Source: Naegleria gruberi
Lineage: Eukaryota
Reading direction: 5' to 3' (one strand)
DNA length: 64,000 bases
NCBI GenBank assembly: GCA_000004985.1
Contig: GG738910.1
This document shows, in pieces, positions 16,748 through 64,000 of this stretch; positions within the stretch are counted from its first letter, which is position 1; each line of letters begins with the position of its first letter. Made by a program: the position numbers and the translations under genes. The notes beneath the pieces were generated by a model. It was not told where the DNA came from. It saw nothing but the letters and a program-made list of their open reading frames with translations, and did no database searches.

Positions 16748-17304
16748 TTTTTTGTTGTGTTTGTTTTAAAAAGTGTTGGCGGCAAAAAAAGGCTGTTGAT
16801 TCAATTATGGTTATTTTCTAAGCTTGAAACAGTTCGAGTGTGTGCTGGATTATACTAGAATGCACAGACAGACATGGTTGAAGAATGAATTCATCAAATA
16901 TTGTGCTCGCTTTAATTTTGACCAATTAAAGATTAAGGATAATGCCCGAATTATCCAATAGAAACAGCTCAAAATGACCATAAATAATATGAAATTGTTG
17001 GGTTGTGTCCATTCTATTGATTTTCTATTATCACAAAATGATCATTGAGTAATATTATTATAAAAACAACATAAATTGTTGCCTCACTTTCTACCAGCAA
17101 CAAATATTGAGAATCAAACACATTGCTTATTTTGGCCAAGTTGAACAAATTGAGGTAGTACGCACACTAACCTTTCATAAATCACTTTGAAAAACAACAA
17201 CAAGAATCAATTCCATCGCATCACATCAAGATTTTCAAAATTGTTCCCTACAAAATCAATATTGAGAGTGGTGAAATTCCAAGTTAAAAAACAACAAGTA
17301 ATTC

Positions 17305-20300
17305 ATGAGAGCTTCATCTTCGGGTGACGATTCATCCTCCACTTCGAATCTTGTTGCTCATCATTATCAGCAAAATTCCAATCATCATCATCAGCGGCCC
17401 AGTTTAATTGATCATATTTTGATGAATAATAATCAGACAAATAATAATAATTATTATCAGCAAGATAGGGAATTGGAAGAAGTTTCAACAAGTGTTGTGC
17501 AACATTATAATAATAATGGTGATTTAAATTTTCCAATTTCTTCTTCTACATCGTCGTCTTCATCCACCAATACAACAAATAATAGTCCTAATCATACTCC
17601 TTCTCCATCAACAACAAATCAACAACATATAATTAGTAATAATAGTATAATTAATTGTGAAGAAGATGAAGAATACTTTAATCGAACAACAACAAATAAT
17701 AATCAAAGTAGTAATACGAGTCATAATAATATCATACCAACTAATATTCATACAACATCATCCTCAGCCCATCTGGTGGGCGAAATTAATGTACATAACA
17801 ATAATAATAATTTAACGTCTCCTGCTGATGATCAATCAACTGATGAAGGAATCTTCCAAAAAACCAAGAGAAAGGGAGAGAACATTTTGGAAACTATTCT
17901 TAGATACTTTTGCTGTGTTTCTCACTTTTCGAGGAATAATACACAACTACTCGAATCACACAATGTTTCGAGTAGTGATTATGGAGCACATAGTTCTGCT
18001 TTCATTAAAGTATTGAAAAAGAATGATCATATTAATATAGTGAACGAGTCGAATGTTTCATCGAGGAGGAGAAGTCGTTTATCACAAGAGGCTGTCAAGA
18101 AGATTAAAAAGAAAAAGAGAATTAGACTGATGAGTGATATTGATGAGGATAGTGATAACGAGGATCAAATTATTGAGAGTGAATATTCATTTTGGATATG
18201 GTTGAAATGTTTCTTTGGAAATTTGACATTCATGTGTCATCCTCCAAAGTGTTGCACCATTTTGAATATTTTAATTATTTTGTTTATTGTTCAAGGAATT
18301 TTTGGAATTATTTCTTCCTTTATTTTACTTTATTCGAGTGGTGAGAGTGTTTTGAAACAAACAGAATCGATCCAACAAATTCAAATCAAAACCTATTCCA
18401 AGAATGAAATTTTAAAGATTGTGGACTATACAAATCTTGCGGTAGAGACAATCAAGTTTGAGATGGCCGAATCTGATTTTAATATTAACAACCAATTACA
18501 TTGGACTAAACTTTTTAATTATGTGGCTAGTATTTATGGGAATAGTATACCAATAGATGGCATATTTTATGGTAAATCGGATAATTTCTATGTAGGATAT
18601 AATAGAAACGTTCAACACACGATAAGAAATGGTACAGCTGGTAAATCCCAATGTCAATACTTTTATCGTGCTCATCTCGACACTATCATAACTGATGATT
18701 CTTACTATTATGAAAACTTTGACTATGTTGCTTGTAATTTGTCAGTTTCGAACACAAAGAGACCTTGGTACTTGCCATATACAAAAGAATCTGATGCATC
18801 AAATTCTATCAAGTGGGCCCCTGTATTCAAATCAATTTATGGAGACCAAAGTATTGCTGTGACAATACCAATCTATGTTAATCAGACAATTTCACAAGCA
18901 CTCAATCAGACAACGCTCAGATACATTCCTGTTGATACTGCTCCTTCATCAATTAAGGTTCCATCTCGCCTATATGGTGTTGTTGGATTTCAATTACAAT
19001 CTAGAGCTTTAGGTGAGCTATTGAAAAATAGCTCTGGTTCATTTGGAGAGGTTGATATGGTATTTATTACGAATCCAGATGGTGATTTAATAGCAGTCAA
19101 TGCTCAATCTGGTTCAGATTACTTTCTGTTTGCCAAATATATCATACAGGATTATAGTGAAAGAGGAGTGTTGCACACTCTCAATACCACTACTTGCCAG
19201 ATAACCAATGGAGTATTATGTTCTCTTTCTTTGGAAAAGAAATCATATTCTTTTGAAGGTGAGGCATATTCTGTTGAGCTTTTATTTGCTACAGATTTGT
19301 ATAGTCTTGGATGGGGAGTGGCAATAGCTTCGAAAGTGAAATCATTTGCAGATGAAGTAGTGACAGGCGGTGTCACTTCTGTAGTTGTATTCGTTATTGT
19401 TTTTATATTTGGTATGATTATACTCTTCTTTACCCTCAAAGCAATTAGTAATCCAATACAACAATTGTCAATAGACATGCTCAAATTGACCAACTTGAAA
19501 GATAACAAGTCAAAGGAACAGACTTTAAGTATTTTCAGTGATATCAGAGAAATGCAAATTCACATCAAGGCAATGAAAAAAGGTCTAATTACATTTTCCA
19601 AGTATGTACCTGAGATTGTTGTAGAAAAGGTAATGATCAAACAAGACTATTCCTATGGAGAGGCTGGATTAACAACACAGAACATGTCAGTATTATGTTG
19701 TGAGCTCAATCCATCCGAAATATTTAGGGAAATGAAACCTTCCGACCTGTTAGACTTGCTCAATGATTACTTTGTGCTTGTTTGCAATGCAACTCACAAT
19801 CATGGAGGATTAGTTGACAAGTTTAACACTAATGCATTGGTTTGTTATTTTAACGAGTCAACATTCCCTGTCTTGAATCATGAACAAAATGCTTGCAGTG
19901 CTGCTTTGGAAATTGTCAATCAGATAAGCGAATTAATTGAAAAGCACTCAAAGAAAACCTCCTCCAAAATATCCATCAAGGTTTCAGTCAATAGTGGAGA
20001 CATTATTTGTGGGCTATTAGGATCTAATACTAGAATGAATTTCTCCATGATTGGAAAAAATTATGACATGGCAATTAACATGCTACAAATGAATAACCAT
20101 TACAAAACCAAGGTACTTATTGGTCAAAACACCTTACGTAAGGTGAGGGAGAACTTTATTTGCTACTTTGTAGACAGTTTGGAGACTGAAAAGATTTCAA
20201 TGCCATGTTCAACATTTAAATGTACATCAAGTGGGGATTTATCAAAATATGATGAAGAGGATAATAATGGCATTTGTAATGTTTATGAATTGATTTGTCA

Positions 20301-20490
20301 TAAGGACGAAGCGACAGAACTCCACAAAAAGATTCAATCTGATTTATACCAAATCGAGTCTTTCTTAGCGAACCAACAGTATCACTATCTGTACGACAAG
20401 TGCCTCTGCGTACTATCCTTAGAAGATCTTCAGAGTGTTGAATATTTAAAATCCAAATATAAAGCCGAATTGAATCGACAGATCCTTTAA
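17305..20490 (+). CDS. Receptor-type membrane protein: N/S-rich cytoplasmic N-terminus, TM1, ~350-aa extracellular Cache-like sensor region, TM2, HAMP-like linker, and a degenerate class III nucleotidyl-cyclase homology domain (pseudo-cyclase), then a C-terminal extension
   Basis: TM1 is ILNILIILFIVQGIFGIISSFILLY. TM2 is VVVFVIVFIFGMIILFFTL, followed by AISNPIQQLSIDMLKLTNL (HAMP-like). The cyclase-homology blocks are ...MSVLCCELNPSE... in place of vLFaDIvgFT, ...GGLVDKFNTNALVCYFN... in place of GDaym, ...IKVSVNSGDIICGLLGS... in place of IrIGiHtGpvvaGvvG, and ...RMNFSMIGKNYDMAINMLQ... in place of rYdvwGdtVNtAsRmes. Both metal-binding Asp and the transition-state Arg appear to be substituted (E, N, L). 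Confidence 0.55.
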   Translation: MRASSSGDDSSSTSNLVAHHYQQNSNHHHQRPSLIDHILMNNNQTNNNNYYQQDRELEEVSTSVVQHYNNNGDLNFPISSSTSSSSSTNTTNNSPNHTPSPSTTNQQHIISNNSIINCEEDEEYFNRTTTNNNQSSNTSHNNIIPTNIHTTSSSAHLVGEINVHNNNNNLTSPADDQSTDEGIFQKTKRKGENILETILRYFCCVSHFSRNNTQLLESHNVSSSDYGAHSSAFIKVLKKNDHINIVNESNVSSRRRSRLSQEAVKKIKKKKRIRLMSDIDEDSDNEDQIIESEYSFWIWLKCFFGNLTFMCHPPKCCTILNILIILFIVQGIFGIISSFILLYSSGESVLKQTESIQQIQIKTYSKNEILKIVDYTNLAVETIKFEMAESDFNINNQLHWTKLFNYVASIYGNSIPIDGIFYGKSDNFYVGYNRNVQHTIRNGTAGKSQCQYFYRAHLDTIITDDSYYYENFDYVACNLSVSNTKRPWYLPYTKESDASNSIKWAPVFKSIYGDQSIAVTIPIYVNQTISQALNQTTLRYIPVDTAPSSIKVPSRLYGVVGFQLQSRALGELLKNSSGSFGEVDMVFITNPDGDLIAVNAQSGSDYFLFAKYIIQDYSERGVLHTLNTTTCQITNGVLCSLSLEKKSYSFEGEAYSVELLFATDLYSLGWGVAIASKVKSFADEVVTGGVTSVVVFVIVFIFGMIILFFTLKAISNPIQQLSIDMLKLTNLKDNKSKEQTLSIFSDIREMQIHIKAMKKGLITFSKYVPEIVVEKVMIKQDYSYGEAGLTTQNMSVLCCELNPSEIFREMKPSDLLDLLNDYFVLVCNATHNHGGLVDKFNTNALVCYFNESTFPVLNHEQNACSAALEIVNQISELIEKHSKKTSSKISIKVSVNSGDIICGLLGSNTRMNFSMIGKNYDMAINMLQMNNHYKTKVLIGQNTLRKVRENFICYFVDSLETEKISMPCSTFKCTSSGDLSKYDEEDNNGICNVYELICHKDEATELHKKIQSDLYQIESFLANQQYHYLYDKCLCVLSLEDLQSVEYLKSKYKAELNRQIL

Positions 20491-32928: not shown

Positions 32929-34104
32929 AGCAACAAATATTCTAACTGTTAACTAACATAATCACCTTAGCCAGTTCATCAACATTACATTCACTGCATC
33001 CACTCAACTTTGCATCTAGCATTAGTCATTTTACAAGTATTAAACAGGCCTCTCAAACTCAGCAACATTCCACTAGTCAATTTAAACAATTATATGAAAC
33101 AAATCCTGTCTTGAATGATTCTAATCTACAACTAGAAGAATCAACAACTCTAACCAATCCTCCTTCATTCTCTCTGCCTCCAAAGATTAGTAAGAATTCG
33201 TTTTCGAGAAAAACAATTTCAACTTCATAATTGAGTCTGGATTCTCTTGGTCCAGAAAAAAGAAAGAGGAAGAAGAGAAGCAATTTAATGTGGAAGTGGA
33301 ATAACTCTGTGATTTTTCAACAGAGTGGAACATTAAAGGAAGGTCTGTGATTTTTCAACAGAGAGGTTTCTTTTTGGAAATACATTGAGCATTCCTTTAA
33401 GTGTCAGTTTTCAAGGGAAAAGGAGAACTTGTCCAGTAGATCCAGAATTTATTACTAATGACTTGTTGGTTGGCCCTGTATTTTAGTCAATTAAGAACCC
33501 AAGGCAACCATTGAAAATTGATATTTAGTATTGATTGTATGGATGGTTTGATGATTTGTTTGGATATGATTTCCTTAACTGTAAGAATGTTCAATTCCAC
33601 ATCCGTCCGCAGTGCTAGCAACATTGCTTTGGTTGTATAAAACGACCCTTCTGGAATATTATTAAGGTTGCAATTATTAATATACTAAGGTGGGGTATTG
33701 TTAATCCTAGTTGAACCGTTGATGATTGTTTTGGAAGTCAGGTTATCAAACCAAATGACACTCTATTTAAGACATGATCGTTGAGCTTCAAGTTTGTGTT
33801 TTGGCCTTTGCTAATATTAATAACACTTATTGAAACATGTTGTGGACGCTGTTTGTTGCGTGGTTTTGACTATTAAAAAAGATCTAAAACAATACAAAAA
33901 CAGCTTTTCCTTTTTTAAGTATTTTACTGTGGAGAAGCCATCACCAACAATACTGGTGGTGGTGGTGCACCACCTGCATTGTTTGTGGCATCTTGCTTGT
34001 AATATAGTGTTGGACAACTGTCCGCTATTCATCTCAACAGTGCCTTAAATCACACACTTAATACTTGGTACCAATAATTTCAAACAATAAAAATTCTTCG
34101 TGTG

Positions 34105-37100
34105 ATGATGACGGTGACGGTACTGAGAGGAGTTAAGGGTGCAATCAATACTAACAGCGCAATATGGCACCACCCATGGAAATATTTAAAAATCATATTG
34201 CTTTGTATTTATTGGGTAGTAATTTTAAATAGTAATCATCATGTACAATGTACAGCAACATACAAATCGAAGGTAATTGTGGGAATGACATCATTGAGTC
34301 CTTTGAACAATGTGTCAATCTCAAGTAATTATGTGATTCCCGGAAATATTTATTTAGATAGTACTGCTGGAGTAATGTACACGACCGAAGATGCAAAAAT
34401 TAGAAAGATTACTCTTTCATCGGGTATTATTTCAACACTTGTAGGTTTTCTAGAAGTTTTTAATGGTTGTTAATTTATGTGTAAAAAACAAAAGGTTGGA
34501 AGTGGTAGATTTGGAACAACATATACAACTGATCCTACGACGACTCAAATGCATATGCCAAAAAGCTTAACACTATGGAAAACACACTTAATTTGGATTG
34601 ATGGATATGTGAGAATTAGAAAATTGGATTCATCCACTAATCAAGTTTCGGTAATTTTTGGTGCAGGAAATGGAAACTCTGACAATACTGTTACAAATCC
34701 TCTCTTGGTTCGATGTGGTTCTTCTTTGTCAATAACTGTAGATCCTTCAGATAATATTTATTTTGCAGATTTTGGTAAGTATTAATTCTTTGAAGTTACT
34801 TGACATTGGAAAAGATAATGTGATGGTAAGAAAAATTGACGGGACTACCAATGTAGCTAGTGTTTACAATTATTACCCTAGTGGTTTATTGGGTTATCCA
34901 GTTCAAATCAAATATTGTAATGGAGGCCTTTATGTATATGTAAATGATAACGTTAATTTCTATATTCAAAAATTGACGGAAAGTGATGGAACTGTTTATG
35001 CAAGCGTAGAGGTTGGAGGTGGTTCATCAAAAAGTACAGGTATTTCTGGAACTTCCTATCAAATGGATGCCACTAACTATGTTACCAAGATGGACTGTTA
35101 CAATAATGAGCTTTATTGGAATGCGTACGATTATAGCATTAGAAAACTAACAACTGGTGGAATTGTGGAACAGGTTTTGGGAAATGGATATAGAGGTGAG
35201 TCAGAAGATGGAACCATTACATCATCTTCAATAATTGGTTACATTGAATACTTAACTATTGATCAGGCGAATGGTGATCTTTACTTTGCTGAAAATAATT
35301 ACAACATTAGAAAACTTGTTGGAACTACTTTGTCTTCATTTTTGCATTATAGAAATGTATTGAATGAAGGAAATCCAAAAACTCTTCCATTAGTTACAAA
35401 GGCAATTGCTTTATACAGTGATGGAATTTATTTGGCTGAACCAAACAGTATTAAGTTTTACAATTTAACAAGTTCAACAATTAAGCATTTTGCGGGATAT
35501 TTTTATCTTCCATATAACAACAAAGCCCCAATAGGATCTTTAAATATTGGAGGTTCTTATGTGACTGCTAGATATTCTAGCATTCTATCTATGACATGCA
35601 CTCCAACAGGAGATATCTATTTGAGTGAGTATTATATGAATTTTCATTCAAAATTGATTTAATAGTTGATAATCATTATCCTGGATTTTTTATCAAATTA
35701 CTGTCAAAGAGCACGGGTTTAGTTACAATAGTAGCTGGCACAGCTTCTGCATTAGAGTGTGTTAATGGAAATACTCCAACTGCTTGTGCTATTACTGTAA
35801 GTATTTTTCTCTCATTTATTGTTTCCAATTTTATTCTAGAATGCCAAAAATATACAATATTACAATGGTGAGGTCTATTTTGCAACAGATATCTACATTT
35901 ACAAAATCAGCTCATCAACTGGAAAGATTGAGATTGTTTTAGGAGGCGGTACTTTCACTTCTGATGGTGCATCTTCATCAGCAAATATTGCAACGCTTGG
36001 TACGTTAATTGTCATTCTCTTTCATTTAATTCTTTTATAGGTGCTTTTACGATACGACCATCAGATGGAAAGATATATTACTTTCAACAAATCGGTTTTA
36101 CGTTTTATCTCAAAGTTTTCTCTACTTCAACAGTTACAACACTTTTTACTGTAAGTGTTGATTGAACTATTTAATCTAACTTAATTAAGACCTCTTCTGT
36201 TCCTCTTGTCCCATTCAGTCTTTATGTAAACGACAACGGTTATGTGTACTACACTGATAGTATGACTAATACTGTTAAACTTTTCACACCTACAACAGCT
36301 AATGCTAACACTGGTACACTTACGTCATATGCTGGTAATAGTTTTGGAACATATAATGATGGAGAAACTCTGGCTAATACCAAGTTCACTACACTTGTAG
36401 GTTTGACTTTTTCCAACGATAACAACTTGATGTTTGTTGCAGACGATAAACTCAGAATAATTTACAAGGAGTGTGATGCAAATTATGGTGGAGATTATTG
36501 TAATCTACCCTATTGTTACTCGATTAGATCTGATGACTCCACTGTTTGTAATTCTAATGGAAATTGTACAGATGTTAACAATTGTTTGTGTTCAAATGGT
36601 TTCTCAGGTGCTAATTGTTCTTCTTGGACTTGTAATGGATATTCAAATTCTCTTACAACTGGCTGTTCTTATCATGGTACTTGTACATCATATAACACTT
36701 GTAATTGCTCATCTAATTATTATGGATCTAATTGCTCAATTACAACATGTAATGATATTTATTCTAATTCAAGTGAAGTTTGTTTAGGAAGAGGTATATG
36801 TGCTCAAGTAGACGATTGCCATTGTGAATTTGGTTTTACAGGCAATAATTGCCAAAATTACAACTGCTCTGGAATTGCTTTTGACAATTCCAGTGTCTGC
36901 TCTTCCAGAGGATTGTGTTTATCTCCAAATAATTGTTCTTGTCAAAGTGGGTTTTTTGGAAATGAGTGTCAACACTATAATTGTTATGGAATTCTCGCTA
37001 ATTCGTCTCAAGTTTGTTCCTCAAGTGGTGTATGTTCATCTCCAAATAATTGCACCTGTAATGATGGTTACACTGGTGATGAATGTCACTTGACTTCCTG

Positions 37101-40100
37101 TTATGGCGTTTCTTCCAATAATTCAAAGGTTTGTTCAGGTCATGGAGGTTGCAGCTTTTATAATAATTGTATCTGTGAAAGTGGATATTTTGGAAATGAT
37201 TGCTTCTTCTATAATTGTTTTGGTATTCTGAATACCAATAGTTCAGTATGTTCTGGAAATGGTAACTGTACAATGCATGATACATGTGAGTGCAAAGAGA
37301 GTTTCACTGGATTAAGTTGTAATGTTACAATACCACAAAATAGTCCAATTATTAGTAATATTTCTTTTGGTAACATTACTTTTAATAATACTTCTATGAA
37401 TGAAACATCTTACTTTAACGAAACTCTCATGAGCAACATATCAATGACTAATGGCAGTTCAAATTATATTTCTTTGAGTAATAATACTGTAAATACCACT
37501 TCCTTAAATGATACAGAGTACTTTAATGAAACCAAAATGAACCCTAGCAACATATCAATAACCAACAGTAGTTTAAACTATACTTCTTTAAATGATACTG
37601 CAAATTTCAATGAAACCAAAATGAACAATGACTCTTCTCATAACTCAACTTCTAACACTAATGAAACGGATGTAAATTCTCCCCTCCTTCAACAAAATAC
37701 ATCCACTATCAACAATACCATTCTTAACAATAACGTCTCTGCTGAGTCCTCCCAAATTTATTTACTGGTTTCGTGTTTTGGTATTCTGAATACCAATAGT
37801 TCTGTCTGCTCAGGAAATGGTAATTGTTCAATGAATGATACATGTGAGTGCAAAGAGAGTTTCACTGGATTAAGTTGTAATGTTACAATACCACAAAATA
37901 GTCCAATTATTAGTAATATTTCTTTTGGTAACATTACTTTTAATAATACTTCTATGAATGAAACATCTTACTTTAACGAAACTATAATGAGCAACATATC
38001 AATGACTAATGGCAGTTCAAATTATACTTCCGAAAACTCAACTTTCACCGTTAACGAAACAGATGTAAATTCGTCTCCACAAAATACGTCAACAATCATC
38101 AACAACACCAACCCAACAACTTCTAACACATCTTCTGTTATGCAAAACAGCACATGCTATGGAACCAATTCTACTCTGGTCTGTAGTGGAAATGGAAAAT
38201 GTTTAACTAACCAACAGTGCTCTTGTGACTATGGATACGCAGGTGATGTATGTGAATTGAATACGTGTTTTGGAATTCCTTCTTCTGATAGAGTATGTAA
38301 TGGAAGAGGTGTTTGTTCAAATATCAATACTTGTGAATGTTTTTCTAGAATTGGAGTCAAGATTATGGGAGATGAATGTGAAACTTTGCTTTGCAGAGGA
38401 GTTTATAATGGTGTGGGGTATTTCTTTTCAGATATAGACTCAAGAGTTTGTTCAAACCATGGAAAGTGCTTTATTGATTTAAATAATTCTTCAGGCTGTT
38501 TTTGTGATTATGGTTATTATGGAGATTCGTGCAATAAGTATGATTGTTTCTCGGAGTCAAGCACTAGTGAAAATGTTTGCTCTGGACATGGAACATGTGA
38601 AAGTCCTGATACTTGTCAATGCTTAAATGATGACACAAATGGACATTTTGCAGGACCAAACTGTAATACATGTCATTCGGCATTTTCTGGATCATCTTGT
38701 AAAGACAAGACATGTACTGCTTCAACATGTTTGAATGGAGGTTCATGTGGAAATGAAAACCAGTGTGTTTGTACCAGTAATTTTACAGGACTGATTTGTG
38801 AGGATTGTAAATTAGACCATTATGGGTTAAATTGTAATGTCTATTGTAATTATGAAACTACGTGTAATGGACATGGATTTTGTGATATGTTGAATGGAAC
38901 CTGTTTATGCTTTTCAAGCAGAGAAAATGGATATTGGAATGGAACAAGTTGTAATTCATGCCTTGTAGACTATTATGGCAGTGATTGTTTAACTCGTTTT
39001 GATTCCTTCAATTCAACTTATTCTTCAGCATTATTTGGACAAATTTCAAAATATTTTGATGGAATATCATTCAAGTTATTTGGGCCTTCTTATTCACATA
39101 ACAGCATTTCATGTTCCAAATTAATTCACCCCAATGATTTTTCACTATTTGGTGTAGAACCAAAATGTTATTGGACAGATAAATTGAATGGTGTATTCAA
39201 AATAGAATTTGATAATGATTTTACATTTGACATCACTAAGGTATTGAGTATCCGATTGAATACAAATGTATTCTCCAATACCTTGATTGATTATGGGTAC
39301 ATTAGAATGTATTTGATTCTGTCTGACAATATTCAAGCACCAACAGCAAATATCAAAACCTCAAAAAAACTTTATTCCACGTCTGAGAATATTTATCTTA
39401 GTGCTAGTAACAGTTTTTCAGGAGATAAGAAAGGATTAGAATATTATTGGAGTATTAATGGACAAAATGTACCAATGAATGTTTTACAATCAACAATGTC
39501 AACAAAGGATCAAATTCTAAAAATTGAAAAAGATCAATTAACCAGTGGAACTTTCGTTATTTCATTATTTGTCAAAAGCCAAGTAAGCAAATTGTCGAGC
39601 TCAACTGAGTCAATCACTATTCAAGTTCAAGATGTTGAATTTCCCTCTGTTGTAATTTTAAATAAGGAAATTTCAGTGAAATCAATAGACAAATATATAA
39701 CAATCAAAAAGACAACCTCTATTCCAATATCTTTGAAAGAAAAGGAAATGAAAATAGAATGGCAACAAATAGAAGGACCAACATCCATCAAATTCAAAAA
39801 AGACTCTTACAATAATTTAGTTATTGAACAATTATCAATTGGAAAATGGAAATATGTTTTCAAAGTTTCAATATTTGTTGTTGAAAATCCAACATTAACC
39901 TCTAACGACTTCGTTGTAATCAATGCAGATCAACCAAAACTTTCACTATCATTATCATTGAAACAATCAACAAGAATATCTAATTCTATTCAGGTGAATT
40001 TTCAAGATCCTGAAAACAATTTAGATGAATACGAGCGTTGGAAGTGGACATGTATTGATGTTGCCACGGTTGGATATTGTGGTGATACAATTTATCAAAA

Positions 40101-42357
40101 TCTTGCTTTGAATTCAAAGAATCGCTCCACAATTATTAATCTTTCACAACAAGATTTTCCATCCTATGTCATGAGCCCAACACTTACATTGTTCATTATG
40201 AAGGGAGATAGAAGCGTTTATAGCTCGTTAAATTTAAATATTCAACATTCACCTCCAATAATCAGTGTTATTAGTATTTCACCAAATTTGAGAAATATTG
40301 TAACCAATGATGATAAAATATCAATTGAAATGAAACATCAAGATCAAGATCCCTCCAATTCATCACTCGTAATTAAAACTCAATGGAAAATTGATAACTT
40401 TTTGGTATCTGAAAGTAATACCAAAAAAGTGAATGGAAATGAATTTGAAACAACTAGCTCCACAATCACAACACCTTTTAAGCATCTTAAGAGTTTAAAT
40501 AAGAATAAGTATAGCTCGTTAGTTATTGACTCAAAAGAACTAGAAGAAGGAACTGATCATTCAATTGAGGTCAAAGTTTCCTTTGTGGATAGTTATACCA
40601 ATCAAGAAATGGCCGCCACTTCAAATGTGAACAGTTTCACAAAAGCCTTACCTCCAAGAAAGTGTCCATGTACCATTTCACCAACAACTGGTGTTTCAAT
40701 GAAGACTGATTTTACATTCAGTTGTGATAATTGTCAGAATGAAGATAATACAATTGAAATCAAACAAGGATACATTGATCAAGAAACTGGAATTAAGGTT
40801 TATTTACCATTGTCATTGGATGGTTCCGTTAACATTCCATCTTCCTCTTCTGCTACATCTTCTACCAAAAGAAGATTGGATGATCATTCTGTTCAATTAT
40901 TTGTTGAACTGGGTGACAAATCAACAGGAGAATCCAGAGTAATGTATTCGAATATCACTGTACTACCTCCAAGCCCACCACATCCAACTTTATCTGAAAT
41001 TTTAAATCTTGTTTCAAATCAAACAAGTAAGATCATGTCTACTTCAATTCAAGATGGTAATACAGCAGTTAGTATTGCAGATACTCTTACTTGTATTGTG
41101 TCAACAAGTCAATTATTACAAACACTACCAAGTACTGATAAGGAAACAAGTACTGTCACTCAAGTTCAATCTAAATTATTAGATACATTATCTAGTTCAT
41201 TGCAAACAACTGGATCTGATAGTGTTTCAAGTTCCACAACGTCAATGGCCGTTCTAGCACTGCATTCCGTTGTGAAGAACGAACAAGTAATTGAAAAACC
41301 AGTTATTCAAAAATCAATTACCATTCTAAATAATGTTATTCAATTGACACTTAAAAGTAAGGTTGATATTTTCACACAAACATCAAAACCGCTATTAGCA
41401 ATTGTTGGAAAGTTAAGTGACCAAGTTGCTAAATTTACCCACTTGAAAGAGGAATTTATAAGATACGAGGAAATAGCATCAACGGCTGAGATGATAACCC
41501 TGTCCTATGTTTCTGTTCAACCAGTGAGTGGTGATCCAGCAGCAATTCATGAGAGTGTTGTTAATGCCAAGGCTGACAAAATGTACTTGACTGATTTTTC
41601 AAATGTAATTATATCATCAGCGCCAACAAGCAATTCTAAAAAGAGAGTGAATATTTATCAATCTTTTGTGAATATTCCACCAATGAAAGTTACAGAAAGT
41701 AATGAATTTGCAGAATTGACCTATTCCTACATTGTTAAAGAGCATGTTCCATCGATTTATCAAAAAATTTTACAACAAGAATCAAATAACTCTACCAATG
41801 GAACAAGGTTTGATGTAATTTCATCTGTGAGTGCTTCATTAGCAATTTCATCTCCTCATGCTCACATGATTGAATTTTCTCAAAATTTGACAATTTATAT
41901 TCATGTCAATGATGAAGATTTCTCCACAGCGTCATTGACAGAATATGCATGTGTATTAGTCAATTCAAATTTGGAAAGCGATTTTGAAAATTGTACCATT
42001 TCAGGACGTGACAAGGCAACTGAGTCAATTGCTTGTAATTGTCGATTCATTGATCTACATGTTTCTAATGTAATAATTCTCAAAAACAATAAGCAAAAAA
42101 TAGTACTACAGAACAAACAAGAAGAAGGTCTAGATGATGATGTGTTGGTGATTATAATTGTTGCAATTGTTTCATGTGTTGGATTGTCTATTCTGTCAAT
42201 TTCAATGGTAATGGGAATTTTTGCTTGTTATATGAAGAAGAAATCTAAAAAGATTTATCCTTACGAAAGAAAGGAATTAATTTCACACAATATTGAACAA
42301 CCTACCAAACCTTATGATAATTCATTGATTTCAACATCTTCCATTTCTTTACTTTAG
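34105..42357 (+). CDS. Cluster member 3 (giant, ~2,664 aa): NHL propeller, tenascin-type EGF arrays with N-glycan-dense stalk, PKD/REJ-like module, GPS-like motif, C-terminal TM; 7 exons, approx join(34105..34440,34495..34774,34815..35624,35666..35796,35840..35999,36041..36150,36190..42357)
   Basis: The joined ORFs 34102.., 34477.., 34763.. and 36244..42357 need 39-54-nt introns (donors gtaggt/gtaagt/gtgagt/gtaagt/gtacgt/gtaagt; acceptors aaaag/aaaag/aatag/tctag/ttatag/ttaag). Summed CDS is 7,995 nt (divisible by 3). Splicing restores NHL blades such as ...IYFADFG|DNVMVRKIDG... and ...LSKSTGLVTIVAGTASALECVNGNTPTACAIT|NAKNIQYYNGEVYFATDIYIYKI.... Then ~30 CxCxxGYxGxxC EGF units, the module with ...SASNSFSGDKKGLEYYWSINGQNVP..., ...CPCTISPTTGVSMKTDFTFSCDNCQN..., juxtamembrane ...YACVLVNSNLESDFENCTISGRDKATESIACNCRFIDLHVSNVIIL, TM LVIIIVAIVSCVGLSILSISMVMGIFAC, and a short tail. 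Confidence 0.6.
37217..38028 (+). repeat. Internal direct duplication (~255 nt at 37217..37467 and 37774..38028) flanking a sequon-dense spacer, inside cluster member 3
   Basis: Both copies encode CFGILNTNSSVCSGNGNC(T/S)M(H/N)DTCECKESFTGLSCNVTIPQNSPIISNISFGNITFNNTSMNETSYFNET(L/I)MSNISMTNGSSNY. About 140 nt (approx 37300..37440 vs 37845..37985) look identical. The intervening ~300 nt encodes almost continuous N-x-S/T sequons. Confidence 0.7.
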
Positions 42358-58205: not shown

Positions 58206-61200
58206 TTAAACAGACTTCATTTCAACTCCTTGTTTTGAGGAATTTGTAGTTTCTGGTTTCATTCTCTTAACAACACAATAACCAAAAATTCCCAATACAA
58301 TAAAGGCAATAATGATAAAGCAAATAATCAAAAAAGCCCACAAAATCCAGAATAACTCAGAGATTCCCTTTGGAGTTTCAGGATTAACTTGTTTTTCAAT
58401 TGGAACAGATGATAAAATACCAACTCTAACATTTTCTGAACATTCACATTGGCCAGAATTAGAATTGAAGGAGAATTTACATGAAGAAGCATCAATGACT
58501 TGACCATTTGTAACTTGAATGCACGAATAAGTTGCCTTATCATTAAAAGTTTGTGTAAGTGGCAAGGAATGAGTTATTGGAGAGGAATAGTTTGTAATAG
58601 ATGTTGAGAATTTAATTTCAGATAAATCAGAGACAATAGTATTAGTTGTACCTTCTTGTTGAGGAGTTACATATTGAGAAACATCCTTAATAATCATCCA
58701 AATGTAATTGACTGGCTTTCTGAGAGAGACACTTTGTAACCTTTGAGAAACAGTTGAAGGAAGAGTTAATGAAGTTTGACTTTCTGTCAAAACTTGTGAA
58801 TCAAAAGTATTCTTAAATTGCTTGTTGAATTGATGAACTGCAAAATTAGGTTCAAACTTGAAAGATGATTGACCAACAAGAACCTTTCTTGAAAGTAATG
58901 AAACCACCATGTGACAACTTTCCATCAATTCTGAATAGTCATACGAAGGCAAAGTCTTTAAATAAGAATGCATGGAATTGAGGGACGAAAGCAACAACCT
59001 TTCAACACCAACTTCAAATTGGAATAATGGAGTGTTTTCAGCATCATTCAAGGTTGACTTGATAATATTCATACTCATGTTATAGACATTAGCAGAAACG
59101 TAACTCTTCAACATAGATTCAATACCGAACATAATGTTAGTAAAAAACCTTCCAGTTATCTTTTCTCCATTTTCATTCTTGACTTGTTGGGAAGAAAAGA
59201 AAGCAGTAGCCAAATCTTGAGTAATTTCATTCAAAATTTCATAATCTTCCTTTGTCATTCTACAGTCAAATGTTGTGTAATCAGCCTCACAAACACATTT
59301 TCCATTAACCAATGAACCATGTCCAGAACAATCTTTCTTTACACTTCTTGATTTAGGGGCGAGAGAATCTGTCATTCTCTTGAGGACTCTTGAAATGATT
59401 GCAGAATTGAAAACAGATCTAGCATAATCACCAGTTGGTAATAATAAGGTGATGGCGTTCCATTTTGTCATGTACTCCTTGATATCCTTTACCTTTGATA
59501 CATATGGAGCTGTAATTTGAACTGATTTCTTGGAAAGAGTTGTTGCAGATGTTTCAGTATCAATAACCTTAACATACAGTTCAAGATTATTACCAGAATT
59601 TGGAGTTGGAAGTTTTTGGTACAATTCTTCATCCTTTGATAAGGTAATTAAAGCACCTGAGAAATCATCAATAAAACCATATTCGAAAGCATAAGTCTTC
59701 TTATCATTTTGACAATTTTCACAATTGAAAGTAAAGATTGTGGTCAAAGCAATACCAGAAGTTGGACTAATGGCACAACTACATGCTTTTGGAGGTCTGT
59801 TAACAGAGAAGGAATAAGAATATGATGTCTTTTGATTATTTCTCTTATCCAAGATAGTTAATGAAATGGTATTAGAACTACCTTCATCCAAATATTGAGT
59901 ATCCAAAATTAGAGAATTTGACAATGATGAACTGATACTCATTGGTGATGTTAATATAGCATCAATAGCCTTGTCATTCAATAACCATGTTCTTGAGATG
60001 AATTGATCTATATTTAAATCACCATTAATAGTGACAACCAATTGAATATTGACATAATCTCCCTTATTAACCTTTGAAGAAGATACTTGAACAACGGAGA
60101 TCAAAGGTGGCATGATTAAATGTTCTGCTTGTTGTGGAAAATTCAAATCAACTGATGATTGAACAAATCTACTTCCCTTTCGAATAGTGAGGCTAATTCT
60201 AACATTTTCTGCTGAACCAAACATTGACTTTTCAATCTTGTATTGTTCAAGAAAACCTTGAGACAAGTAATTAACAACATCAACTGGACAAACAGTATTA
60301 GTAACAGTGTCCACACATGTCCAAGAATAAGTTGGTTGAACATTTTCAGATTCTGGATCAGTGAAATCAATTCCAATGGTACTGTATTGAGGAGTAGAAT
60401 CTAAAACATACATGTTCATTGAGAGTGCTTGAGCTACAGTGTCGATAGTGACAAGAGCTGTTGAAAATTTGTTAACATTAGAAGTATCGAAAGCAGAGAC
60501 TTTGAAAACATATTGTCTTGTTTCAATGGTATTGAAATTGGTAATCTTTAAATTCTTGAATGAATCAACTGTGAATTCTACTTGAGGACCACTGATTTGT
60601 GTCCATGTGTAATCAATATTTGCAGCAGATTCCATGCATATTGGAATGGACAGCTTCTTCTTGAATGAAATTGGAACGTCACTAGTCTTGACAGTAACTG
60701 AACTACTTTTATATAAGCCATCAATGGAAACAACTGGAACAGCATAGGTAAGTTTGGTGAAACTGAATTGAATCTTATCAACCAATGAATAAACTTGACT
60801 AGTTACAGCCAATTCAAATTGATGAACACCAGCATTCATACCAGAATAGCTAATATTCAATTTACTTGGGGAAGCAAGAGTAGAATCCAATAACTTTTGA
60901 AGTTCTACCTTATTTGGTGATGACAATACAGTCCATTTGAAATTCAATGTCTTTCTATCAGGGGAATAACTTTCAGAAGCATCAATTAAAACATCTTCAC
61001 AACTTCCATAAGTGTCCTTAGCTCCAGATATTGTGGCAATCGGACTCTTTGGTGATAAAGCACCTTGGACAGTAAATGCCAAATATTGAGCATTGACATT
61101 ATTTGATTCAAAGTATAAATTATTCAAAGAGATACTATCACCTGCCTTCAATTTGTAGTCCGTGTTAAGTTCAATTGAGAATTCAAACGTTTCCTTGTTA

Positions 61201-63872: not shown

Positions 63873-64000
63873 AACACTGCTTAACTTTGTCCAAAGTTTT
63901 TCCTTATTGAAAGAGAAGGTCCTATTCCAATCAAGGAAGAATTAATAATACTACATTTAAGGACTGCATCATTTCGCACATTCTGCTTGCGTATATCCCC

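What the first reader, a model, noticed from the sequence alone, without database searches (positions are those of the whole stretch)
37217..38028. Recent internal duplication bracketing an N-glycosylation-sequon-saturated stalk within an EGF array (member 3)
Two ~255-nt copies (37217..37467, 37774..38028) encode the same EGF unit plus a 'VTIPQNSPIISNISFGNITFNNTSMNETSYFNET(L/I)MSNISMTNGSSNY' segment. About 140 nt are identical. Between them lies ~100 aa of almost back-to-back N-x-S/T sequons (NISMTNGSSNYISLSNNTVNTTSLNDTEYFNETKMNPSNISITNSSLNYTSLNDTANFNETKMNNDSSHNSTSNTNETDVNS...). This suggests a heavily N-glycosylated mucin-like spacer inserted into the EGF rod, created by recent duplication. 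It is unusual relative to the otherwise Cys-dense architecture.
Basis: seen in the sequence. Interest (0 to 1): 0.55.

Follow-up and report, generated by a model that had tools for sequence, protein, structure and literature searches.

The report
Duplicated EGF plus N-glycan stalk module
A large predicted surface protein of the soil amoeba Naegleria gruberi carries two tandem copies of an "EGF domain plus asparagine-sugar-site-rich spacer" module, partly homogenised by recent recombination; the feature is real but is an ordinary kind of repeat evolution in a fast-evolving surface-protein family.

Summary
Window 37216-37472 and 37774-38030 are a 257-nt in-frame direct repeat, 96% identical, with a 149-nt exact core. 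It lies in the last exon of a Naegleria gruberi gene (NCBI "predicted protein", 2604 aa). The protein has a weak NHL-like region, about 15 teneurin-type EGFs, a REJ domain and one TM.

The repeat is the best-preserved part of a larger tandem duplication of a whole [EGF + Cys-free stalk] module (558 nt and 381 nt). Synonymous divergence is mosaic: 0.52 in the first 21 codons, 0.03 in the 63-codon core, and about 0.7 in the tail. This favours an older duplication followed by recent gene conversion of the core. Stalk 1 also has 84-108-nt sub-repeats.

The stalks hold 24 and 17 N-x-S/T sequons, against about 11 and 7 expected from composition (0 of 5000 shuffles reach the observed counts). The sequons are spaced every 4-6 residues. 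N. gruberi has the full N-glycosylation pathway.

Five other N. gruberi paralogues carry equally sequon-saturated inserts, so the stalk is a family theme. Glycosylation itself is inferred, not shown. No close orthologue or independent assembly was available. Interest is modest.

The parts
34285..42357 (+). Host gene: Naegleria gruberi 'predicted protein' (P0001, 2604 aa), 7 exons with short introns. Architecture: weak NHL-like region, EGF array, REJ domain, single TM.
   Evidence: 100% identity to P0001. Exon mapping: 34285-34446, 34501-34773, 34814-35623, 35668-35796, 35840-36001, 36043-36150, 36190-42354. Pfam: EGF_2 117.8 bits, EGF_TEN 107.6, EGF_Teneurin 100, REJ 56.7. TEN_NHL is weak, 18.7 bits against a cut-off of 27.1.
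36478..37215 (+). EGF array, N-terminal part (P0001 aa 646-891), Cys-dense with about 15% Cys
   Evidence: 246 aa, 11 sequons, C 0.15
37216..37472 (+). Repeat copy 1 (257 nt)
   Evidence: D1
37774..38030 (+). Repeat copy 2 (257 nt, 96% identical to copy 1)
   Evidence: D1; (E 1.6e-119)
37277..37425 (+). 149-nt exact-identity core of copy 1 (= 37835-37983 in copy 2). It lies within the low-dS tract 37279-37467 (dS 0.03), the inferred gene-conversion tract.
37216..37320 (+). EGF-A (aa 892-926), complete 6-Cys unit, first part of module A
   Evidence: translations
37321..37773 (+). Stalk 1 (aa 927-1077): 151 aa, no Cys, 24 sequons, 69% of Asn residues in sequons
37354..37623 (+). Three degenerate sub-repeats of stalk 1. 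R1 37354-37431 (26 aa), R2 37432-37539 (36 aa), R3 37540-37623 (28 aa). Each ends in (Y/N)FNET(L/K)M.
   Evidence: D2 (75-nt family at 37358, 37466, 37550, 37916; 71-76% identity; spacing 108 and 84); internal blastn hits at 72-74%
37624..37773 (+). Tail of stalk 1 (NNDSSHNSTSNTNETDVNSPLLQQNTSTINNT...SQIYLLVS), homologous to the tail of stalk 2 at about 72-79% nt identity
   Evidence: D3, D10; 419-500 vs 38027-38102, 72%; tail dS 0.67
37774..37878 (+). EGF-B (aa 1078-1112), an isolated 'island' EGF between the two stalks
   Evidence: Pfam EGF_Teneurin 25.3 bits against a cut-off of 24.3
37879..38154 (+). Stalk 2 (aa 1113-1204): 92 aa, no Cys, 17 sequons, 85% of Asn residues in sequons
38155..38997 (+). 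EGF array, C-terminal part (aa 1205-1485)
39739..41064 (+). REJ domain (ORF aa 1166-1607)
   Evidence: Pfam PF02010, E 2.1e-15, 56.7 bits against a cut-off of 25
42142..42234 (+). Single C-terminal transmembrane segment (aa 2534-2564) followed by KKKSKK. This implies a type I topology with the stalks extracellular or lumenal.
   Evidence: hydropathy scan, max KD 2.98, the only such segment

Best explanation
The region encodes two tandem copies of a module made of one teneurin/tenascin-type EGF domain followed by a cysteine-free, Asn/Ser/Thr-rich linker ('stalk'). The module sits in the middle of the EGF rod of a large type I surface protein of Naegleria gruberi.

Inferred history:
1. A stalk built from 26-36-aa degenerate repeats arose next to an EGF.
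2. The whole EGF+stalk module duplicated in tandem. This is the older event, with synonymous divergence of about 0.5-0.7 at its edges.
3. Unequal crossing-over or slippage changed the number of sub-repeats. Module A has about 57 more residues than module B.
4. A recent gene-conversion or unequal-exchange event homogenised about 190 nt, covering the C-terminal half of the EGF plus the first stalk repeat.

Inferred function (not shown): in the ER the oligosaccharyltransferase glycosylates most of the 41 sequons, which are spaced every 4-6 residues. That would turn the two linkers into extended, hydrated, protease-shielded N-glycan 'bottle-brush' spacers. These would separate the distal NHL-like region and seven EGFs from the membrane-proximal EGFs and REJ domain, adding reach or a hinge. 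This would be an N-linked functional analogue of O-glycosylated mucin-like stalks.
For: Shown:
- The repeat is real, in frame, and lies in a coding exon of an annotated N. gruberi gene. The frame has 0 stops in 278 codons against 8-42 in the other frames.
- The two modules are collinear over their whole length: EGF, R1, start of R2, then the tail NST..NETDVNS..QNTST(I)INNT.
- Divergence is mosaic: dS 0.52, then 0.03, then 0.67. Synonymous differences are 11 of about 26 sites in the flanks and 1 of about 36 in the core (Fisher p = 1.3e-4).
- Sequons exceed composition shuffles: 24 against 10.7+-2.4 and 17 against 7.2+-1.9, with 0 of 5000 shuffles reaching either. In the stalks, 69-85% of Asn residues sit in sequons, against 4-31% elsewhere in the protein. 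The reversed motif [ST]-x-N is not enriched (12 and 6).
- Spacing is regular. In stalk 1, 74% of gaps are 4-6 residues against 19% in shuffles (p = 1.4e-8), and short gaps are avoided.
- The weak NHL-like region is depleted of sequons (2 against 10.9 expected). Enrichment in exposed parts with depletion in folded parts is the 'dual selection' signature described for secretory proteins (PMC5562741).
- Topology: a single C-terminal TM with a basic cytoplasmic flank puts the stalks outside.
- N. gruberi has homologues of Alg1-14, Rft1, Stt3, Ost1, Ost2, Ost3/6, Wbp1 and Swp1 (Table 1 of PMC4973528).
- Five further N. gruberi paralogues (P0057, P0087, P0091, P0097, P0111) have Cys-free inserts in or next to their EGF arrays. 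These have 16.7-18.8 sequons per 100 aa. The four long inserts score z = 5.9-9.4 over shuffles, and the short P0091 insert scores z = 2.1. Median spacing is 5-6 residues in all of them.
- Ongoing intragenic homogenisation in this gene cluster is independently visible. The neighbouring paralogue has adjacent 117-nt EGF units that are 116/117 identical.
Against: - There is no direct evidence of glycosylation, expression or surface location.
- The annotated model lacks a signal peptide. Only an in-frame upstream extension supplies a hydrophobic segment.
- The mosaic rests on few sites (12 synonymous differences in all). The low-complexity tails are hard to align, so their apparent homology could be partly convergent.
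- A two-step history (older stalk-internal repeats, then a recent 257-nt segmental copy) cannot be excluded.
- No orthologue, second strain or second assembly was available to time or confirm the events.
- The structure prediction was uninformative, so 'extended or disordered' is an assumption.
Confidence: 0.6

Rival explanations
1. Simple recent segmental duplication. A pre-existing long stalk followed one EGF. A 257-nt piece (EGF plus the start of the stalk) was recently copied and inserted about 300 nt downstream. The resemblance of the two tails reflects older stalk-internal repeats, not a whole-module duplication.
For: The copies are 96% identical with a 149-nt exact run. The stalk does contain older internal repeats of 84-108 nt (D2). 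Tail similarity is only 72-79% over short low-complexity stretches.
Against: The first 21 codons of the copies have dS 0.52, as high as the tails, while the next 63 codons have 0.03. A single recent copy should be uniformly similar. The order EGF, R1, R2 start, NETDVNS tail is collinear in both modules. Under the insertion model that collinearity would be a coincidence.
Confidence: 0.2
2. The Asn-rich stretches are ordinary low-complexity sequence drift in an AT-rich genome and are not, or only sparsely, glycosylated. They would act at most as a passive flexible linker.
For: The region is 31% GC and rich in N, S and T. No experimental glycosylation data exist. The literature search found no Naegleria N-glycoproteomics.
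Against: Sequon counts are 5 SD above composition-preserving shuffles, and the reversed motif is not enriched. Spacing is far more regular than in shuffles. The same signature recurs in non-alignable stalks of five paralogues. Folded parts of the same protein are depleted of sequons. The organism has a complete OST and ALG set.
Confidence: 0.1
3. The stalk is a folded beta-solenoid rod (pentapeptide-repeat-like or hexapeptide-like), and the N-x-[ST]-hydrophobic-x periodicity reflects Asn/Thr ladders rather than glycosylation sites.
For: Pentapeptide_3 (PF13576) gives a sub-threshold hit on repeat R1. It scores 24.5 bits with both copies present and 18 bits for one, against a cut-off of 27. A hydrophobic residue often follows the sequon. 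The P0057 stalk gives a very weak LbH hit (E 0.027).
Against: All hits are below the curated cut-offs and no single stretch passes. Sequon gaps mix 4, 5 and 6 with no two consecutive 5s, so no in-phase run of pentads exists. The residue that would face inward is often E, D or N (contexts). The other paralogue stalks give no such hits. AF2 gave no confident solenoid, though that model is uninformative overall.
Confidence: 0.06
4. Assembly artefact: a read stack across 37200-38050 was duplicated or mis-joined, so one of the copies does not exist.
For: Near-identical repeats are classic sites of mis-assembly. No reads or second assembly could be consulted.
Against: The copies are not identical (10 differences, mostly synonymous). 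They are separated by 301 nt of unique sequence and followed by different tails. The frame is kept throughout, with 0 stops in 278 codons. The offset is exactly 186 codons. The repeat is short (257 nt). From my own knowledge, not a tool result, the original N. gruberi assembly used Sanger reads, which would be long enough to span it.
Confidence: 0.03

Closest known systems
Mucin-like Ser/Thr-rich O-glycosylated stalks next to EGF modules in animal receptors (LDL-receptor O-linked sugar domain; EGF-TM7 adhesion GPCRs such as CD97/EMR with EGF - mucin-like spacer - GPS). From general knowledge, not tested here.
   Same: A low-complexity, Cys-free, presumably heavily glycosylated spacer combined with EGF modules in the ectodomain of a membrane protein. 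The same protein also has a membrane-proximal REJ and GPS-like region. The presumed role is extension, rigidity and protease protection.
   Different: The stalk here is built on Asn-x-Ser/Thr sequons (16-19 per 100 aa) with little proline. The predicted chemistry is therefore N-linked rather than mucin-type O-linked. The spacers lie inside the EGF array, around an island EGF, rather than between the EGFs and the membrane-proximal domain. There is no sequence homology.
Intragenic tandem repeats in fungal cell-wall adhesins (FLO, ALS families), where recombination between glycosylated Ser/Thr-rich repeats changes stalk length. From general knowledge.
   Same: In-frame coding repeats in a glycosylated stalk of a surface protein. 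There are signs of unequal exchange, conversion and repeat-number change: sub-repeats of 84-108 nt, a module duplication and a homogenised core. A neighbouring paralogue also has near-identical repeats.
   Different: The organism, the domain types (EGF/REJ) and the predicted glycan linkage all differ. Length polymorphism between alleles or strains was not tested.
PKD1 / sea-urchin REJ family and the Naegleria EGF-REJ(-GPS) paralogue family (hits)
   Same: The protein has a REJ domain above the Pfam threshold, a large modular ectodomain and a Cys-containing GPS-like segment before the TM. It has dozens of paralogues in N. gruberi, N. lovaniensis, N. fowleri, Percolomonas and Acrasis.
   Different: It has a single TM rather than 11 TM with PLAT. 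The GPS-like motif is degenerate, with no conserved Trp or HL[ST]. The EGF array and the stalks have no counterpart in PKD1.
Teneurins (source of the best-scoring Pfam EGF models)
   Same: EGF_TEN and EGF_Teneurin-type EGF units and a weak TEN_NHL match.
   Different: The domain order and topology are opposite (the NHL-like region is N-terminal to the EGFs, and the TM is C-terminal, type I). No YD shell or toxin domain was detected. This protein is not a teneurin.
Viral glycan shields (e.g. [quoted passage not shown]
   Same: Selection for a high density of N-glycosylation sequons on an exposed surface.
   Different: There the sequons decorate a folded domain for immune evasion. Here they are packed at regular 4-6-residue intervals in a low-complexity linker of a free-living amoeba.

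Membership tests
EGF-like domain (Pfam EGF_2 / EGF_Teneurin / EGF_TEN) | Profile match above the curated threshold | tested here: met
   For the whole ORF: EGF_2 117.8 bits (cut-off 22.1), EGF_TEN 107.6 (65), EGF_Teneurin 100 (24.3). The island EGF-B alone scores EGF_Teneurin 25.3 bits against 24.3.
EGF-like domain (Pfam EGF_2 / EGF_Teneurin / EGF_TEN) | Six conserved cysteines per unit | tested here: met
   Both copies read C-x10-C-x5-C-x5-C-x-C-x8-C: CFGILNTNSSVCSGNGNC(T/S)M(H/N)DTCECKESFTGLSC.
Teneurin | Type II membrane protein with EGF repeats followed by NHL beta-propeller, YD-repeat shell and C-terminal toxin-like domain | tested here: not met
   The TM is C-terminal. The NHL-like region is N-terminal to the EGFs and below threshold (18.7 against 27.1 bits). 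No YD or Tox domain appears in the Pfam scans.
PKD1 / REJ family | REJ domain | tested here: met
   PF02010, E 2.1e-15, 56.7 bits against a cut-off of 25, aligned to profile positions 11-443 of 452.
PKD1 / REJ family | GPS cleavage motif (C..W..C..C-x-C-HL[ST]) before the first TM | tested here: inconclusive
   The segment YACVLVNSNLESDFENCTISGRDKATESIACNCRFIDLHVSNV keeps the Cys pattern but lacks the Trp and the HL[ST] site (inspection only). No Pfam GPS hit.
PKD1 / REJ family | PLAT domain and 11-TM polycystin channel-like region | tested here: not met
   Only one hydrophobic segment was found in 2604 aa. No PLAT or PKD_channel hit.
Mucin / PTS domain | Pro/Thr/Ser-rich tandem repeats serving as dense O-glycosylation sites | tested here: not met
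   The stalks are Asn 22-23%, Ser 18-20%, Thr 14-18%. Proline is only 4 of 92 residues in stalk 2 and is not among the eight commonest residues of stalk 1 (<=5 of 151). The repeats are degenerate at 71-76% nt identity. The enriched motif is the N-x-S/T sequon. O-glycosylation itself is not testable here.
N-glycosylated protein segment | N-x-S/T (x not Pro) sequons in a lumenal or extracellular segment of a secretory-pathway protein, in an organism with OST | tested here: met
   41 sequons lie in 243 aa. The segment is N-terminal to the single TM with a basic cytoplasmic tail. N. gruberi has Stt3, Ost1, Ost2, Ost3/6, Wbp1, Swp1 and the ALG set. A signal peptide is not in the annotated model and is only plausible in an upstream extension.
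N-glycosylated protein segment | Actual glycan occupancy | not testable with these tools
   This needs PNGase F or Endo H shift, lectin blot or glycoproteomics.
Pentapeptide repeat protein (PF13576 / PF00805) | Profile match above threshold and long in-phase runs of A(D/N)LXX pentads | tested here: not met
   Pentapeptide_3 scores 24.5 bits (two copies of R1) or 18 bits (one), against a cut-off of 27, and no stretch passes on its own. Sequon gaps never give two consecutive 5s.

The most novel reading that the evidence does not exclude
Naegleria gruberi EGF-REJ surface proteins repeatedly evolved an N-linked counterpart of mucin domains. These are Cys-free inserts with one N-glycosylation sequon every 5-6 residues over 40-400 residues, which may be close to the densest spacing the oligosaccharyltransferase can use. 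They would form N-glycan 'bottle-brush' rods inside EGF arrays and would be kept dynamic by intragenic recombination. The six stalks found are not alignable to each other, so they may have arisen independently under a common selection.
Probability: 0.3. Interest if true: 0.5.

Novelty: new variant of a known kind. Interest (0 to 1): 0.27.

Why it matters
If the stalks are glycosylated as predicted, they would be a clear natural example of very dense, regularly spaced N-glycosylation: about 17 sites per 100 residues. That would be useful for asking how closely OST can place glycans. It would also show that a free-living heterolobosean builds mucin-like spacers with N-linked rather than O-linked sugars.

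The mosaic divergence gives a small, clean case of intragenic gene conversion in a fast-evolving, lineage-specifically expanded surface-receptor family. It matters little beyond that. The gene is already annotated as a predicted protein. Internal duplication of EGF modules is commonplace. Nothing here bears on a long-standing open question.

Tried and rejected
1. The best non-self hits are at most 32% identical. The N. lovaniensis candidate P0003 shows no flanking synteny with the window, and it matches the neighbouring 4090-aa paralogue better than this gene (752 against 369 bits). No clean orthologue exists in the data. P0003 has only a 17-aa linker (IRVETGSTANNSNYVADVQ) in its EGF array and no sequon-dense stalk.

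2. Independent assembly, strain or transcript evidence.
- The full-length search returned no second about-100% hit.
- A search with the stalk region alone returned nothing at E <= 0.001, not even the protein itself, presumably because of low-complexity filtering.
- An exact 41-mer from the core has 0 matches in the metagenome contigs.
- The look-up of encoding contigs has no record for P0001.

3. AlphaFold2 single-sequence model of aa 853-1241. Mean pLDDT was 31.6, with 387 of 389 residues below 50, and only the C-terminal EGF approaches 45. It is uninformative about disorder versus fold, and no fold search was run on it.

4. Homology between the paralogues' stalks. Pairwise BLAST gives only weak, composition-like matches (best E 6e-6 at 31% identity, mostly E > 0.01). 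Common ancestry of the stalks is neither shown nor excluded.

5. Pentapeptide or left-handed beta-helix reading. All hits are sub-threshold, so it was rejected as the main model.

6. Literature. Searches for Naegleria N-glycans, Naegleria glycoconjugates, and Naegleria with EGF/REJ found no paper describing this family or Naegleria N-glycoproteomics. They yielded only the pathway inventory and references to lectin studies.

7. Mobile element or dispersed repeat. blastn of module A against the whole window finds only the internal copies and one trivial 45-nt EGF match.
Full report
**Observation.** The repeat finder on 36000-39500 returns a single long two-copy family. The copies are at 37216-37472 and 37774-38030, 257 nt long and 96% identical, with a start-to-start spacing of 558 nt. 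The ungapped identity track and a global alignment place the mismatches at unit positions 29-60 (seven of them) and at 210 and 212. This leaves an exact run of 149 nt (37277-37425 = 37835-37983). blastn of the first unit against the whole 64-kb window finds copy 2 at E 1.6e-119. Otherwise it finds only internal 72-74% sub-repeats and one trivial EGF match.

**Context.** Both copies lie in a 2037-codon open frame, 36244-42357 (+). That frame is 100% identical to a 2604-aa NCBI 'predicted protein [Naegleria gruberi]' on a 243,952-nt contig (P0001). Exact peptide mapping gives a 7-exon model, 34285-42354, with introns of about 40-55 nt. The finding sits in the last exon, 36190-42354. Pfam finds EGF_2, EGF_TEN and EGF_Teneurin units and a REJ domain (56.7 bits). 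There is a weak, sub-threshold TEN_NHL match in the N-terminal 640 aa. Only one strongly hydrophobic segment exists (aa 2534-2564), and it is followed by KKKSKK. The protein is thus a type I membrane protein: weak NHL-like region, EGF rod, REJ domain, TM. The region of interest is extracellular or lumenal. The stalk region is coding: 0 stops in 278 codons against 8-42 in the other five frames, with P about 1.6e-9 from composition.

**Anatomy of the duplication.** The 257-nt repeat is only the best-preserved part of a larger tandem duplication.
- Module A (37216-37773, aa 892-1077) is EGF-A (35 aa, six Cys) plus a 151-aa Cys-free stalk.
- Module B (37774-38154, aa 1078-1204) is EGF-B plus a 92-aa stalk.

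After the shared head, module A has about 165-170 extra nucleotides. Both modules then continue with a homologous tail: NSTSNTNETDVNSPLLQQNTSTINNT in A and NSTFTVNETDVNSSPQNTSTIINNT in B. These tails are 72-79% identical at the DNA level (D3/D10).

Stalk 1 is itself made of three degenerate repeats of 26, 36 and 28 aa. Each ends in (Y/N)FNET(L/K)M. At the DNA level this is a 75-nt family at 71-76% identity with spacings of 108 and 84 nt (D2). Module B has R1 and the first 12 residues of R2 and then joins the tail, as expected from unequal exchange between sub-repeats.

**Age of the duplication.** Codon-based counts (Nei-Gojobori style) give:
- dS = 0.52 for the first 21 codons (5 synonymous differences in 13.3 sites);
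- dS = 0.03 for the next 63 codons (1 in 35.5 sites);
- dS = 0.67 for the alignable tail block (4 in 9 sites).

dN is low throughout the head. The contrast is significant: Fisher p = 0.003 for part 1 against the core, and p = 1.3e-4 for both flanks against the core. A single recent duplication should be uniformly similar. The mosaic and the collinearity of the modules favour an older whole-module duplication, followed by a recent gene-conversion or unequal-exchange tract of about 190 nt. The numbers are small, so I hold this at moderate confidence.

Recent homogenisation is plausible in this locus. The neighbouring paralogue (P0021, minus strand) has a 117-nt EGF tandem array whose adjacent units at about 61945-62178 are 116/117 identical.

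**Sequon saturation.** P0001 has 76 N-x-S/T (x not Pro) sequons. Of these, 41 lie in the two stalks, which make up 9% of the length.
- Stalk 1 has 24 sequons, against 10.7+-2.4 in 5000 composition-preserving shuffles.
- Stalk 2 has 17, against 7.2+-1.9. No shuffle reaches either observed count.
- In the stalks, 69% and 85% of Asn residues are in sequons, against 4-31% elsewhere in the protein.
- The reversed motif [ST]-x-N occurs only 12 and 6 times.
- Sequons are spaced regularly. In stalk 1, 74% of gaps are 4-6 residues against 19% in shuffles (p = 1.4e-8). Gaps of 3 or fewer are rare.

So this is not just Asn-rich low complexity. The motif itself and its spacing look selected.

Conversely, the weak NHL-like region has 2 sequons where 10.9 are expected. 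Enrichment in exposed regions with purging from folded or buried ones is the published signature of secretory-pathway proteins (PMC5562741). N. gruberi has detectable homologues of the whole dolichol pathway and of Stt3, Ost1, Ost2, Ost3/6, Wbp1 and Swp1 (PMC4973528 Table 1). Glycosylation of the stalks is therefore a well-founded inference, but it remains an inference.

**Family context.** Within the window, this gene's peak density (13 sequons per 60 aa) is unmatched. The two other EGF-REJ paralogues peak at 4-5, and an unrelated N/S/T-rich ORF (17302-20487) peaks at 7. Among the 120 best database hits, however, five other N. gruberi paralogues carry Cys-free inserts in or beside their EGF arrays:
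- P0057 aa 339-581
- P0087 aa 1045-1470
- P0091 aa 611-682
- P0097 aa 1039-1294
- P0111 aa 1064-1339

These inserts have 16.7-18.8 sequons per 100 aa and median spacing of 5-6 residues. The four long inserts score z = 5.9-9.4 over shuffles, and the short P0091 insert scores z = 2.1. None of the N. lovaniensis, N. fowleri, Percolomonas or Acrasis hits does, but few were sampled.

The stalks of different paralogues are not convincingly alignable. The module is a recurrent type rather than one conserved domain.

**Mechanism proposed.** The shown steps are the duplication, mosaic divergence, sub-repeat structure, sequon excess and spacing, topology, presence of the pathway, and recurrence. The inferred steps are co-translational N-glycosylation of most sites, which would produce extended, hydrated, protease-shielded spacers. 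These would lengthen or hinge the EGF rod and hold the distal NHL-like region and EGFs away from the membrane-proximal EGF/REJ part. Recombination among repeats would tune the length.

**Rivals.**
- Unglycosylated low complexity is contradicted by the shuffle, reversed-motif and spacing controls.
- A pentapeptide-like beta-solenoid was raised by a sub-threshold Pentapeptide_3 hit on R1 (24.5 and 18 bits against a cut-off of 27). It is disfavoured by the out-of-phase 4/5/6 spacing and by acidic or amide residues at would-be inward positions.
- Mis-assembly is unlikely. The copies differ at 10 mainly synonymous positions, have unique sequence between and after them, and keep the frame. It cannot be formally excluded without reads.

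**Comparison with known systems.** The protein is a member of the EGF-domain superfamily and carries a REJ domain. It is not a teneurin, because the topology and domain order are wrong and there is no YD shell. It is not a polycystin-1-type protein, because it has one TM, no PLAT domain and a degenerate GPS-like motif. Functionally the stalks resemble mucin-like O-glycosylated spacers of EGF-containing receptors and the recombining glycosylated repeat stalks of fungal adhesins. They fail the compositional definition of a PTS mucin domain and are predicted to be N-linked.

**What failed.** No usable orthologue or synteny was found. No second assembly or transcript was found. The AF2 single-sequence model was uninformative. 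No literature on this family or on Naegleria N-glycoproteomics was found.

**Verdict.** This is a modest variant of well-known themes, namely glycosylated spacers and intragenic repeat dynamics in surface proteins. Interest is about 0.27.

Noticed in passing
window 34285-42357 (+), 43391/44730-56999 (+), 58209-63941 (-): Three large EGF-REJ-type paralogues sit side by side. They are P0001, a 4090-codon open frame, and P0021 (1835 aa). They are only about 30-40% identical to each other and to the N. lovaniensis protein P0003, so this looks like a lineage-specific tandem gene cluster. Only P0001 has sequon-dense stalks.
   Followed up: partly
window 61727-62962 (-), especially 61945-62178: The neighbouring paralogue P0021 contains a tandem array of at least 9 EGF units of 117 nt. 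Two adjacent units are 116/117 identical, with one E/Q difference, so very recent intragenic duplication or conversion also occurs there.
   Followed up: yes
window 34102-34284 (+), upstream of annotated exon 1: The annotated model P0001 starts at MTSLSPL and has no signal peptide. The same frame is open upstream (ATG ATG at about 34105) and encodes ...WKYLKIILLCIYWVVILNSNHHVQC. This hydrophobic segment ends like the signal peptide of N. lovaniensis P0003 (...LLFCLLLHNTKVVQC). The gene model is probably truncated at the N-terminus.
   Followed up: partly
P0001 aa 1-645 (window 34285-36477): The weak NHL-like region is strongly depleted of sequons: 2 observed against 10.9+-2.8 expected, and all 5000 shuffles have at least as many. 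The REJ-to-C-terminus part is mildly depleted (11 against 16.2). This is consistent with purifying selection against glycans in folded domains.
   Followed up: partly
P0001 aa ~2468-2510 (window ~41944-42072): A GPS-like Cys pattern precedes the TM (YACVLVNSNLESDFENCTISGRDKATESIACNCRFIDLHVSNV). It lacks the conserved Trp and the HL[ST] cleavage site that paralogues keep (e.g. C-x-C-THTTMF). It may be a non-cleaving, degenerate GPS.
   Followed up: no
P0057 aa 339-581, P0087 aa 1045-1470, P0091 aa 611-682, P0097 aa 1039-1294, P0111 aa 1064-1339 (other N. gruberi contigs): Five further N. gruberi paralogues have Cys-free inserts with 16.7-18.8 sequons per 100 aa and spacing of 5-6 residues, inside or beside EGF arrays. 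These stalks are not alignable with each other.
   Followed up: yes
window 37354-37431 and 37912-37989 (repeat R1): There is a sub-threshold Pfam Pentapeptide_3 match (24.5 bits against a cut-off of 27) to SNISFGNITFNNTSMNETSYFNET. The stalk has a loose N-x-[ST]-hydrophobic-x pentad rhythm.
   Followed up: partly
P0008 (N. lovaniensis C9374_004025) aa 1549-1617: A 69-aa Cys-free stretch (VSPIHVSVTRITFLKIVPFLFVLEWLAMK...) sits inside an otherwise perfect EGF array. It looks like an out-of-frame translation, meaning a frameshift or annotation error in that record, and is not a stalk.
   Followed up: no
window 17302-20487 (+): An unrelated 1062-codon open frame has an S/T/N-rich low-complexity segment (7 sequons per 60 aa...SSSTSSSSSTNTTNNSPNHTPSPSTTNQQ...). 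It has the second-highest sequon density in the window.
   Followed up: no
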